Positions 55,460 to 64,000 of a stretch of DNA of 64,000 nt are shown here, in pieces (within the stretch, counting starts at the first letter, position 1; every line of letters starts with the position of its first letter). Made by a program: the position numbers and the translations under genes. The DNA is from Mobula hypostoma (lineage: Eukaryota). The DNA is taken from contig NC_086108.1 of assembly GCF_963921235.1 (NCBI RefSeq), positions 89,840,001 to 89,904,000 on the forward strand. Direction: 5' to 3'. The notes beneath the pieces were generated by a model that was not told where the DNA came from, made no database searches, and saw only the letters and a list, made by a program, of their open reading frames with translations.

Positions 55460-57590
55460 GAACCAGAGAGGACAGGAACATTTTTAATTGGGGAGGGGCA
55501 AATTATGAGGCTATAAGGCTAGAACTTGCTGATGTGTATTGGGATGATGTTTTTGCAGGGACATGTGGTCGATGTTTAGGATGTTAGGGATAAATTTATC
55601 CCGGTGAGGCAGATAAAGAATGATAGGGTGAAGGAACCATGGGAGACAAGTGAGGTGGAAAATCTAGTCAGGTGGAAGAAGCAGCATACATGAGGTTTAG
55701 GAAGCAAGGAACAGATGGGTCTATTGAGGAATATAGGGAAGCAAGAAAGGAACGTAAGAAGGGGCTGAGGAAAGCAAAAAGGGAGCATGAGAAGGCCTTG
55801 GCAAATAGGGTAAAGGAAAACCCCAAGGCATTCTTCAATTATGTGAAAAACAAAAGGATGACAGGAGTGAAGAGATAAAGGTGGGAAGATGTGCCTGGAG
55901 GCTTTGGAAGTGAGCGAGGTCCTCAATGAATACTTCTCTTCGGTATTCAGCAATGAGAGGGAACTTGATGACAGTGAGGACAATATGAGTGAGGTTGATT
56001 TTCTGGAACATGTTGATATTAAGGGAGAGGAGGTGTTGGAGTTGTTAAAATACATTAGGACGGATAAGACCCCGGGGCCTAAGGGAAGAGATTGCTGAGC
56101 TTCTGGCTAGGATCTTTATGTCCTCATTGTCCACGGGAATGGTACCAGAGGACTGGAGGGAGGGGAATGTTGTCCCCTTGTTCAAAGAAGGTAGTAGGGA
56201 TAGTCTGGGTAATTATAGACCAGTGAGCCTTATGTCTGTCTGTGGTGGGAAAACTGTTGGAAAAGATTCTTAGAGATAGGATCTTTGGGCATTTAGAGAA
56301 TCATGGTCTGATCAGGGACAGTCAGCATGGCTTTGTGAAGGGCAGATCGTGCTTAACAAGCCTGATAGAGTTCTTTGAGGAGGTGACCAAGCATATAGAT
56401 GAGGGTAGTGCAGTGGATGTGATCTACATAGATTTTAGTAAGGCATTTGACAAGGTTCCACATGGTAGACTTATTCAGAAAGTCAGAAGGCATGGAATCC
56501 AGGCAAGTTTGGCCAGGTGGACTCAGAATTGGCTTGCCTGCAGGAAGCAGCGGGTCGTGGTGGAGGCAGTACATTCGGATTGGATGGTTGTAATTAGTGG
56601 TGTCCCACAAGGATTGGTTCTGGGACCTCTACTTTTTGTGATTTTTATTAACGACCTGGATCTGAGGGTAGAAGGGTGGGTCGGCAAGTTTGCAGACGAC
56701 ACAAAGGTTGGTGGTGTTGTGGATAGTGTAGCGGATTGTAGAAGATTGCAGAGAGACATTGATAGGATGCAGAAGTGGACTGAGAAGTAGCAGATGGAGT
56801 TCAACCCGGAGAAGTGTGAGGTGGTACACTTTGGAAGGACAAACTCCAAGGCAGAGTACAAAGTAAATGGCAGGATACTTGGTAGTGTAGAGGAGCAGAG
56901 GGATCTGGGGGTACACGTCCACAGATCTCTAAAAGCTGCCTCACAGTTAGATAGGGTAGTTAAGAAAGCTTATGGGGTGTTAGCCTTCATAAGTCGAGAG
57001 ATAGAGTTTAAGAGTTGCGAGGAAATGATGCAGCTCTATAAAACTCTGGCTAGGCCACATTTGGGGTACTGTGTCCAGTTCTGGTTGCCTCACTATAGGA
57101 AGGATGTGGAAGCATTGGAAAGGGTACAGAGGAGATTTACCAGGATGCTGCTTGGTTTAGAGAGTATGGATTACGACCAGAGATTAAGGGAGCTAGGGCT
57201 TTACTCTTTGGAGAGAAGGAGGATGAGAGGAGACATGATACAGGTGTACAAGATATTAAGAGGAATAGATAGAGTGGACAGCCAGCGCCTCATCCCCAGG
57301 GCACCACTGCTCAATACAAAAGGACATGGCTTTAAGGTAAGGGGTGGGAAGTTCAAGGGGGATATTAGAGGAAGGTTTTTTACTCGGAGAATGGTTGGTG
57401 CGTGGAATGCACTGCCTGAGTCAGTGGTGGAGGCAGATACACTAGTGAAGTTTAAGAGACTACTAGACAGGTATATGGAGGAATTTAAGGTGGGGTGTTA
57501 TATGGGAGGCAGGGTCTAAGGGTCGGCACAACATTGTGGGCTGAAGGACCTGTACTGTGCTGTACTATTCTATGTTCTATGTTCTATCTA
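55460..57590 (+). mobile_element. CR1 LINE (tether, RT, 3' end) inserted in a minus-strand Rex1 remnant (about 54960-55455 and 57590-57620)
   Basis: ORFs 56242-56790 and 56794-57519 (QHGFVKGRSCLT, GVPQG, FADDTK) and a (TTCTATG)n tail. Confidence 0.93.
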
Positions 57591-61669: not shown

Positions 61670-61948
61670 GCCAGATTTGGGGACAGCTTCTTTCCAACTG
61701 TGATAAGACTGCTGAACGGATCCTAACCCAGATCTGGGCCATCCCCTCCAAATATCCGGAGCTGCATATTGGTTTTTTGGACTACCTTACTTTCCATTTT
61801 TATATTTTCTGTTTATGATTTATAATTTGAATTTTTAATATTTACTATCAATTTGTAATCCAGTGAGCAGGAAGCACATAATCCAATATCACTATGATGA
61901 TTGTACGTTCTGGTATCAATTGTTTGGCGACTATAAAGTATAAAGTAT
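61670..61948 (+). mobile_element. Rex1 3' end (family of 27478-28755) inserted in Gypsy gag
   Basis: GCCAGATTTGGGGACAGCTTCTTTCCAACTGTGATAAGACTGCTGAACGGATCC is nearly identical to 28477-28530. TAAAGTA tail. Confidence 0.9.
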
Positions 61949-61960
61949 AGTAAGACACAT

Positions 61961-62509
61961 GTTGTTCGTCCATCGTTGATGTCGAAGAGGACCTCGACAC
62001 CATAATGATTGTGTCGAGACTAGCGTGTGATTTGGATTTAAGTGAGGGAGAGTTGCACAGCGTCAGCCTCACTCTCTCTTCCCAATTCCCATCTGGATCC
62101 AGTGACAAGACAGAATCTAGACAGCTGGAGATGGGACTAGGCGCAGTGGATGACCAGGACGTCTTCTGTGTCTTGTCCTGCTCTACACGTTCCACGACGC
62201 TTGCAGAGACTGCCTTCTTGACCGTTGGACCTTCCGCTGGTCTCGTCCGCTCAATCCGCCGGAGTCTGTCTTCACATGCTCCCTATCTCACTGAGGGTTT
62301 GAGACCCGTCGGCTACCCTCACCTGGTTTAGCCGGCTTGTCGAAGCTGTTGCCCGGGGTGTGGCCGCTGTTGCATGCAGACAGCTACGGGGAGCCACAGG
62401 TGAGAGCTGAGTGCCAGGTGGGGAGCAAAGGTGGACTAACCGCCCTGAAAAGGACGCGACATGTCCCCCCACCAGAGGTGCTACCCCTCCCTGACACCCC
62501 ATATAGCCC
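61961..62509 (-). mobile_element. Short non-autonomous non-LTR element (RTE/ingi-Vingi-like), 12-bp TSD
   Basis: AGTAAGACACAT is duplicated at 61949-61960 and 62510-62521. The minus-strand 3' end is ...GATGGACGAACAAC. The 5' end folds as an HDV-like ribozyme. Clade assignment is tentative. Confidence 0.75.
62316..62500 (-). ncRNA. HDV-like self-cleaving ribozyme (candidate)
   Basis: P1 GGGGUGU/ACACCCC; P2 CUCUCACCUG/CAGGUGAGGG; P3 GGC/GCC; L3 UCCCCGUA plus hairpin GCUGU..ACAGC; GG after P1' able to pair with L3 CC (P1.1); P4 region GCAACAGCUUCGACAAGC; J4/2 GGCUAA with a C at the catalytic position. Confidence 0.72.
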
Positions 62510-64000
62510 AGTAAGACACATACAAAGAGCATGTCTGGCAAACTAAAGGACATGTGCTGCACAGGGAAGAGAAAAAAATTCAAGTCAAGTTGTAGTTTAA
62601 AAAGAGCACTAATCTGCATGCTGTTGGTAAAAAAAAATCTGATAATGATAAGACTGACAGACCTGTGCAGACTTGAGATTTACAATGTGAAAACTAACAA
62701 TGTGACAAGCAATATGGCTTACATCAGAAGTGAATGGCAAATTAATTAAAATAGAGGTGGACACTGGCTCGGTTGTTTCAGCCATTCCACAAAATAAGTT
62801 TGAGTGACATTTCAAAGTTACTGAACTGAAGCCTGCAGATATCCAGCTATGAACTTACACTGGAGAAAAGATAACTCCTGTGGGAATGACATTCATAATA
62901 GTGAAATACAACAACCAACAAGACACATTGGGATTGTATATGTAAAGGCATGAGGACCAGCATTGTGAGGATGTGATTGGCTGAGACAACTACAACTTCA
63001 TTAGAGATCCATCGACTATTTGCAATGAAAGCAAATTAAGAAAGGTAGCGGATGATACCACAGCAGTGCTCAATGATGGCATTGGAATGCTCAAAGATAT
63101 CAGGAGCAAAATAGTGTTAAATGAAAATGCTGCACCCAGGTTTTACAAAACCCATCCGGTTTCTTATACCATCTGTGAGCTGGGTGGCAAGGCTTTCTTT
63201 CCAAGGTTGAGCAGAGTCCATGAGCAACACTACTGGTCTCAGTCACAAAGAATATTGGGTCTGTCAGGATCACTGGTGACTTTAAGTTGAACATCAATCC
63301 AATGCTGAAAGTAGATCAATAGCCTCTGCCCAGGATAAAAGATATCTTTTTAAACCTTTCTGGAAGGAAACATTGCAGCACAGTGGATTCAGCTGATGCC
63401 AGACTATAGATGGAAATCGAAGAAGAGTTCAACGTGTTACTCACCATAAACACATAAAGGGTTTATTGCTACAATAGGCTTATTTTTGGGGTAGCATCTG
63501 CACCCGCACCCTGGCAGAGAGCCATGGACCAGGTGCTGCAAAGCTGATCAGAGATTCAATGTTGCCTGGATGTCAGCATTGTTACCAGCAAGGATGACAA
63601 AGAACATCTCCAATATCTCAAGACTGTTTTAAAAATATTATGAAGATTATGGGCTCAGAGTATAAAGCAACAAGTATGAATTCTGTAAACCAAGCTTCTC
63701 TTACTTTGGTAGCACCATTGAAACATAAGTTTTACACAAGTGTGCTGAGAAAATTCAAGCAGTGGAGGATGCCCCCATCCCAAGGGAGATGTAACAGTTG
63801 TGGTCCTTTTTAAGATTTGTCGATTACTGCTACAGGCTCCTGCCAAACCTGGCTACTGCGTTCCGGCCCTTGAACTCATTACTACAGATTGAGAAGAAAT
63901 AGCAATAAACAACACAGCAAGAGGTGGCTTTCCAAAAGACAAAGGAAATGGTGACTTCAGACACTCTACTCACAAATTATGATCCACACTACCCAGTGAA

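What the first reader, a model, noticed from the sequence alone, without database searches (positions are those of the whole stretch)
62316..62500. Intact-looking HDV-like ribozyme at the 5' end of a 549-bp TSD-flanked retroelement
Seen on the minus strand: GGGGUGU...CUCUCACCUG-U-GGC-UCCCCGUA-[GCUGU cugcaugca ACAGC]-G-GCC-ACACCCC-GG-GCAACAGCUUCGACAAGCC-GGCUAA-AC-CAGGUGAGGG. All helices of the nested double pseudoknot (P1, P2, P3, P1.1, P4) can form in the correct order. G1 lies 9 nt inside the 12-bp TSD. The fold has a long J1/2 insertion of about 85 nt and an extra hairpin in L3. Known: HDV-like ribozymes define the 5' ends of R2, RTE and ingi/L1Tc-type retrotransposons. Inference: this is a ribozyme-headed, Pol III-independent SINE-like element that excises its own 5' end from host read-through transcripts. 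I do not know whether this family has been described in cartilaginous fish.
Basis: partly seen in the sequence, partly recalled or inferred. Interest (0 to 1): 0.78.

Follow-up and report, generated by a model that had tools for sequence, protein, structure and literature searches.

The report
Ribozyme-headed mini RTE, worn copy

Summary
The fold and the 549-bp TSD-flanked element are real, but the cut site and "intact" are wrong. Family copies share nine more bases upstream of 62500: the TSD abuts 62509 in 23 of 46 copies and never 62500. A distant RTE (L277) changes P1 on both sides in this register, and L275 does so in P2 and P3. This copy has two P1 mismatches. The element is an internal deletion of a ~4.06-kb RTE LINE in the same genome (5' ~521 nt plus 3' ~40 nt), not an independent SINE. 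Ribozyme-headed RTEs and two-part RTE derivatives are known. Less usual: a hairpin inside L3, a composite subfamily carrying a tRNA-SINE between the two ends, and an 8-11-bp helix between the parent's ends whose loop holds the deletion point. The scan reported this family before at other loci of this genome and in other genomes; the helix lead came from those notes and was re-tested here. Cleavage is untested.

The parts
61961..62509 (-). Whole element, 549 bp (family length 562 bp); internally deleted RTE LINE
62510..62521 (.). Target-site duplication, 5' side (12 bp), abutting the predicted G1
61949..61960 (.). Target-site duplication, 3' side (12 bp)
62503..62509 (-). True P1 5' strand; G1 = 62509. 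Family GGGGUGU, this copy GGGCUAU (2 mismatches)
62409..62499 (-).
   Evidence: pair probabilities 0.91-0.96
62397..62406 (-). P2 5' strand (10 bp)
62362..62395 (-). P3 (62395-62393 with 62364-62362) and 28-nt L3 with U 62392, P1.1 CC 62391-62390, G 62387 and inserted hairpin 62384-62366
62353..62361 (-). P1 3' strand (62361-62355) and P1.1 GG (62354-62353)
62333..62348 (-). P4, 6 bp in the family, one mismatch here (62347)
62327..62332 (-). J4/2 with candidate catalytic C at 62331
62316..62325 (-). P2 3' strand
62279..62280 (-). Site of a 13-bp deletion private to this copy
62005..62170 (-). RTE 5'-UTR domain resembling RTE-1_PSi 27-196 and RTE-3_AMi 147-292 (compared by eye)
   Evidence: Kojima 2018 supplement; also in L275, L277, L280
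61993..62018 (-). 11-bp hairpin: 5' arm (62018-62008) comes from the LINE 5' UTR, 3' arm (62003-61993) from just after the LINE stop codon; the deletion junction lies in the loop
61961..62003 (-). RTE 3' tail (~40 nt) ending in AAC repeats, shared with the LINE

Best explanation
[quoted passage not shown] Shown: family, ends, parent LINE, deletion junction, pairing potential, compensatory changes. Inferred: a source copy lying in a Pol II transcript is read through; P1 (first 7 nt) with P1.2, P2, P3, P1.1 and P4 folds; C62331 acts as general acid; cleavage frees a 5'-defined RNA; the RTE protein, supplied in trans, recognises the shared ~40-nt tail and inserts a copy by target-primed reverse transcription with a ~10-bp TSD. 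The window copy is a passive product with a weakened P1; it may cleave poorly at 62509 or, using the second GGGGUGU, at 62500.
For: Family: 2005 exact matches of a 24-mer, control 0; 40 of 4741 candidates scored, the 39 others all full length at 93-95%. 5' end: TSD abuts position 1 in 23 of 46 copies with a TSD, within 1 nt in 30, at 62500 in 0 (57 copies had both ends); run X19 has 62 contigs with mixed loose ends at 62510. Covariation: L277 has P1 GUGGUGU/ACACCAC and its reader-register strand pairs at 3 of 7; L275 has a C-G to A-U change in P2 and G-C to A-U in P3 and a plain 7-nt L3; both keep U, CC, G of L3, GG and the C of J4/2. Older family B: two-sided changes at 2 P4 pairs and 3 J1/2 pairs. 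Parent: L212 and L214 carry element positions 1-~521, an ORF with endonuclease PF03372 and RT PF00078, then positions 520-562; 29 of 30 LINE internal-UTR loci have the head, and all 30 ORF-end loci carry one shared tail. Architecture (short linkers, P1.2, long P2) matches the fast drz-Agam-2-1 ribozyme (PMC4908430).
Against: No cleavage or RNA-end data. Within the genome P1, P2, P3 and P1.1 show 0 two-sided changes in 22 pairs, and the count of pairs with such changes (8) is not above shuffles (mean 9.6; 442 of 500); core covariation rests on two single contigs, L277 and L275, and L275 lacks the P1 5' strand. Only 2 of 80 metagenome RTE loci gave a significant profile match; L280, L287, L292 and L325 have 5' UTR sequence but no hit. 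Rfam finds nothing. Only 20 of 52 heads keep a full core, and 0 of 16 family B heads pass the strict descriptor. Neither full-length LINE read has an unbroken ORF. The 90-copy sample was chosen by an exact match across P4-J4/2-P2, so invariance there is by construction.
Confidence: 0.8

Rival explanations
1. The 5' end is set by an internal Pol II promoter starting at position 1; the fold is active or vestigial but serves another role (5' protection, translation of the LINE ORF), as in the promoter-plus-ribozyme Pr77 of L1Tc.
For: Clustered 5' ends fit a fixed start site as well as cleavage. Kojima 2018 argues that bipartite LINEs are Pol II transcripts and that LINE 5' ends drive transcription. 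Pr77 is both promoter and ribozyme (PMC3383444, abstract in search listing). Several related RTEs show no detectable ribozyme.
Against: Catalytic-core letters and pairs are kept across L277, L275 and families A and B, and G1 falls exactly on the TSD border. This rival is compatible with an active ribozyme and differs only in where the precursor comes from.
Confidence: 0.14
2. One reading: cleavage at 62500 with GGGGUGU 62500-62494 as P1.
For: Perfect 7-bp complement; in this copy alone the two registers tie (-47.1 against -46.4 kcal/mol); 2 of 60 copies in two other sets start at position 10; the strict descriptor finds only this register in the window and in 8 of 63 family A heads.
Against: 0 of 46 TSDs end there; the strand is sequestered in P1.2 (probability 0.91-0.96); in L277 it pairs at 3 of 7 while the first 7 nt pair at 7 of 7.
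Confidence: 0.04
3. The fold is a chance arrangement in a GC-rich UTR.
For: No Rfam match; post hoc descriptor.
Against: 0 hits in 1.46 Mb background and 0 of 2000 shuffles; compensatory changes in P1, P2, P3, P4.
Confidence: 0.02

Closest known systems
Bipartite non-autonomous RTE elements (RTE-N2_Lch from RTE-4_Lch, WALLSI3/RTESINE2, Bov-A; Kojima 2018 PMC5786205, parts 1-4 of 5 of the text and supplement part 2 plus passages read; Kojima 2020 PMC7245038, passages)
   Same: 5' end plus short 3' end of an RTE LINE, ORF deleted, AAC tail; the 5'-UTR domain and tail resemble RTE-1_PSi and RTE-3_AMi by eye.
   Different: Keeps about 521 nt of 5' UTR including the whole predicted ribozyme; the paper mentions RTE ribozymes only as predicted for some families and shows none in these elements in the parts read.
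Extended HDV-like ribozyme drz-Agam-2-1 (Webb et al. 2016, PMC4908430, part 1 of 4 and passages read); its link to RTE elements is from Ruminski et al. 2011, recalled, not held, cited in PMC6765202 and PMC5786205
   Same: Nested double pseudoknot with structured J1/2 (P1.2), short linkers and long P2; cut at the first base of P1.
   Different: 19-nt hairpin inserted in L3, an unpaired U between P2 and P3, G-C rather than G-U at the first P1 pair; activity untested.
R2 SIDEs and R2/R1 hybrid SIDEs (Eickbush and Eickbush 2012, PMC3414825, passages read)
   Same: Ribozyme head plus LINE 3' end, ORF lost, mobilised in trans; SIDE ribozymes were shown to cleave.
   Different: SIDEs are rDNA-specific, few in number and use R2/R1 proteins; this family is dispersed, in thousands of copies, and uses an APE-type RTE.
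NARTc/RIME with the Pr77 ribozyme-promoter (PMC3383444, PMC4035085; search listings and abstract starts only)
   Same: Short non-autonomous partner sharing a ribozyme head with its LINE.
   Different: Ingi clade, 77-nt minimal ribozyme, trypanosomes.

Membership tests
HDV-like ribozyme | P1, P2, P3, P1.1, P4 in nested double-pseudoknot order | tested here: met
   91.7% of 2495 cells paired over 41 rows; this copy has 2 P1 mismatches and 1 in P4
HDV-like ribozyme | Core letters: U, CC and G in L3, GG of P1.1, catalytic C in J4/2 | tested here: met
   Kept in the window, family A, family B majority, L277, L275
HDV-like ribozyme | Compensatory change in core helices | tested here: met
   P1 (L277), P2 and P3 (L275), P4 (family B); none in P1-P3 within the genome, one event per helix
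HDV-like ribozyme | L3 of 7-8 nt (recalled canonical size) | tested here: not met
   28 nt with a hairpin here, 26 nt in L277, 7 nt in L275: a variant, removable in a relative
HDV-like ribozyme | Match to an Rfam HDV-type model | tested here: not met
   No match at E<=10; about 110 nt of insertions may explain it
HDV-like ribozyme | Mg2+- and C-dependent cleavage 5' of G1 | not testable with these tools
   Needs an in vitro assay
Bipartite non-autonomous RTE | 5' and 3' ends shared with an autonomous LINE, ORF absent | tested here: met
   L212, L214; 29 of 30 and 30 of 30 loci; 88-94% identity over heads
Bipartite non-autonomous RTE | Parent is RTE clade: one ORF, APE + RT, no RNase H, short 3' UTR with microsatellite tail | tested here: met
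   Pfam; homologues of about 1060-1070 aa with only APE and RT domains; tail and UTR like RTE-1_PSi by eye
Bipartite non-autonomous RTE | RT phylogeny places the parent in the RTE clade | not tested
   No labelled reference proteins were returned; no tree built
Bipartite non-autonomous RTE | TSDs and 5' truncations of target-primed reverse transcription | tested here: met
   TSD >=7 bp in 46 of 57, median 10; 21 of 90 truncated beyond position 26
Pol III SINE (tRNA, 5S, 7SL head) | Internal A and B boxes at the 5' end | tested here: not met
   No A or B box by recalled consensus patterns; one loose A-like match at 195; T4 at 59

The most novel reading that the evidence does not exclude
RTE RNAs of this lineage are built as a cassette: a self-cutting head with an L3-inserted hairpin, a conserved 5'-UTR domain, and a short covarying helix that joins the 5' UTR to the 3' tail across 3.5 kb. 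Whatever lies inside the helix is cargo (the ORF, nothing, or a tRNA-SINE, all three seen in this genome), and the helix is both part of the signal the RTE protein reads and the place where deletions fall. This would explain why RTEs in particular spawn two-part parasites and would give a design rule for RTE-based gene writers.
Probability: 0.4. Interest if true: 0.68.

Novelty: new variant of a known kind. Interest (0 to 1): 0.42.

Why it matters
[quoted passage not shown] Kojima 2018 leaves open why RTE, Ingi/Vingi and R2 alone yield ORF-less two-part derivatives; the end-to-end helix makes that question testable by compensatory mutation. RTE UTRs already flank payloads in gene-insertion platforms (PMC13708176, passages), so a pairing between the two UTRs would be of practical use.

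Tried and rejected
Rfam scan: no ribozyme match. First partner candidates rejected: L065 continues into a CR1; the AT-rich RTE-type LINE in L181 ends in GAT repeats and merely hosts a copy. A 3'-tail pattern (902 matches) returned only short-element copies in the 30 loci read. Nine 'family C' loci looked like a new SINE head but are a DNA transposon carrying a clipped family B copy. Expression: runs X1, X2, X9, X10, X12, X15, X19 are contigs only, RNA status is a guess, and repeats pile up, so they show presence in other organisms but no RNA end or cleavage. A 3214-nt contig in X10 looked like a full LINE but could not be read. End-to-end helix by free energy: not exceptional (rank 258/396, 62/382, 209/395, 11/391, 15/391, 15/391 among 60-nt windows; L214 failed the anchor); only the exact-run test supports it, and L212 fails that (5 bp). 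Literature: 10 searches listed no paper on this family, on an L3-hairpin HDV-like ribozyme or on an RTE end-to-end helix; Ruminski 2011 was not held and Repbase/Dfam cannot be searched, so any of these may be in print. The 2026 preprint on ribozyme discovery has no RTE or shark passage in its main text (supplements closed). Sequence look-up in earlier findings gave nothing; the word look-up did. Family B's parent LINE and the host gene context of the window were not looked for.

Full report
Observation. A 12-bp duplication flanks 61961-62509. Rfam gave no ribozyme match. My own strict descriptor hit the window once on both strands, hit nothing in 1,459,078 masked background bases and 0 of 2000 shuffles; it was written after seeing the sequence.

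The family. A genome search returned 4741 candidates, 40 scored, all full length. A 24-mer from the P4-J4/2-P2 region occurs 2005 times exactly, its reversed control 0 times; this is a lower bound and includes the longer forms described below. I read 90 of the first 91 places listed on contig C1. Among 25 of the 48 full-length copies pairwise identity has median 93.4% and maximum 96.5%, so the family is not very young. The window copy lacks 13 bp at 62279/62280.

The cut site is misplaced by nine bases. Alignment starts at family position 1 (=62509) in 45 of 90, at 1-4 in 61, at 7 in 6, at 12 and 14 once each, further 3' in 21, and at position 10 (=62500) in none; 1 of 30 and 1 of 30 did start at 10 in two other sets. 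The window copy reads GGGCUAU there, breaking two P1 pairs, and its two registers tie (-46.4 against -47.1). Eickbush 2013 reports that single P1 mismatches can abolish cleavage in vitro, though about a quarter of R2 ribozymes have 1-2 at the top of P1 (PMC3774820, passages). Only 20 of 52 heads keep a full core.

Covariation. An older sister family B has the same first bases. On 41 aligned heads (16 family A, 10 LINE, 14 family B, the window; chosen from 63, 17 and 16 with whole heads, dropping near-duplicates and gapped rows) 91.7% of cells pair. Two-sided changes separate A from B at two P4 pairs and three J1/2 pairs, but P1, P2, P3 and P1.1 show none, and the number of covarying pairs does not exceed shuffles. 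Core support comes from distant RTEs among 80 metagenome loci, of which two match the head profile. It keeps the L3 hairpin with a different loop. L275 is cut at its 5' end but shows two-sided changes in P2 and P3 and a plain 7-nt L3. Short linkers, a stable P1.2 and a long P2 are the combination that makes drz-Agam-2-1 fast (PMC4908430).

The parent. Three of the 90 copies continue at position ~521 into a LINE. L212 and L214 are ~4.06 kb: element positions 1-521, CAT repeats, about 330 nt more UTR, one broken ORF with endonuclease and RT domains and a C-terminal CCHH-type motif, a stop codon, then element positions 520-562. Of 30 loci found by the internal UTR, 29 carry the head or a 5'-truncated part of it; all 30 found by the ORF end carry a single shared tail. 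So the short element is an internal deletion of this LINE. RT homologues are single ORFs of about 1060-1070 aa without RNase H, closest 80% in a turtle, 73% in a frog, 72% in a fish. The UTR domain and tail resemble RTE-1_PSi and RTE-3_AMi in the Kojima 2018 supplement, by eye. No tree was built. No Pol III boxes were found.

A third form. Ten of the 90 copies carry a ~135-bp tRNA-SINE-like cassette with A and B boxes between position ~517 and the tail, inside one TSD. All 30 best matches to that cassette have the RTE head upstream, 22 of them starting within the first seven bases (the query came from a composite copy, so free copies may be missed). These were copied from RNA that began about 510 nt upstream of the internal Pol III promoter, which fits a head-defined 5' end.

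End-to-end helix. The 11-bp inverted repeat at 62018-62008/62003-61993 has one arm from the LINE 5' UTR and one from just past the stop codon, with the deletion junction in its loop. Earlier notes of this scan proposed that such arms pair across the whole LINE; I tested it. In windows fixed by homology, exact complementary runs were 11 bp in L214 (3 of 395 control windows as long), 10 in L277 (3 of 397), 9 in L287 (3 of 393), 8 in L275 (14 of 384) and 5 in the mutated L212 (258 of 398); the three distant elements combine to p of about 0.0002, with overlapping windows and a window size narrowed. The arms differ in sequence yet stay complementary, as do those of RTE-1_PSi (CTTGACATC/GATGTCAAG) and RTE-3_AMi (CATGACATC/GATGTCATG), and the WALLSI1A junction also falls between them (by eye). 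Against: by duplex energy the pairing is not exceptional in 3 of 6 elements tested, and in L287 the offset differs.

Mechanism. Most likely a source copy inside a Pol II transcript folds the ribozyme, cleaves before position 1, and the RTE protein copies the freed RNA from its tail. The sequence facts are shown; cleavage, the origin of the precursor and the role of the helix are inferred. An internal promoter at the same base remains possible.

Comparison and novelty. HDV-like ribozymes at RTE 5' ends, including non-autonomous elements, are described (PMC6765202, passages; PMC5786205), as are bipartite RTE derivatives and R2 SIDEs. Ten searches listed nothing on this family, the L3 hairpin or the helix, but Ruminski 2011 was not held and repeat libraries could not be searched. 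The scan has reported the same family at two other loci of this genome and like elements elsewhere; these are unchecked notes, not support. Verdict: real, a variant of a known kind, this copy worn; interest 0.42.

Noticed in passing
L080, L088, L091, L104, L112, L117, L121, L122, L126, L138; L355-L384: Composite subfamily: ribozyme-headed RTE 5' UTR, then a tRNA-SINE-like cassette, then the RTE tail, in one TSD. The reverse of the usual tRNA-head-plus-RTE-body SINE.
   Followed up: partly
L151, L153, L156, L162, L166, L172, L174, L176, L178, L179: A non-autonomous DNA transposon with ~24-bp terminal inverted repeats and TA ends (Tigger/pogo-like by recall) that carries a 5'-clipped family B copy without the P1 5' strand and spread it.
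   Followed up: partly
L152-L180: Older sister family B (~535 bp, about 71% to family A over the shared part) with the same 5' end and a different tail whose junction region also forms a small hairpin; parent LINE not sought.
   Followed up: partly
L015, L092, L150, L240, L373 (5' junctions): Inverted copies of the element's own first bases sit at the 5' junction; L011 and L066 have direct duplications. The first three bases vary more (13-19%) than the rest of the head (2.4% outside CpG).
   Followed up: no
window 62509-62494: GGGGUGU occurs twice nine bases apart at the family's 5' end, in families A and B; the second copy could act as a back-up P1 in copies whose first strand has decayed.
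   Followed up: partly
L181 (G000:C1:105052000-105060500): A second, AT-rich, decayed RTE-type LINE ending in GAT repeats, with a family A copy inserted in its endonuclease region.
   Followed up: no
L065: The first ~271 nt of the element joined directly to a CR1 endonuclease region; nested insertion or chimera.
   Followed up: no
L287, L288, L289, L292, L325: Related RTEs keep the downstream UTR but have unrelated 5' regions with no match to this ribozyme profile; they may carry other heads.
   Followed up: no
runs X10 and X12, at window 62503: Three contigs each suggest a leader one base different (GGGUGUGUAU) in other organisms; too few to read.
   Followed up: no
window 55600-57520 (+): A decayed CR1-type LINE with RT fragments; further repeats lie at about 61800-61950 and 62540-62700 beside the element.
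   Followed up: no
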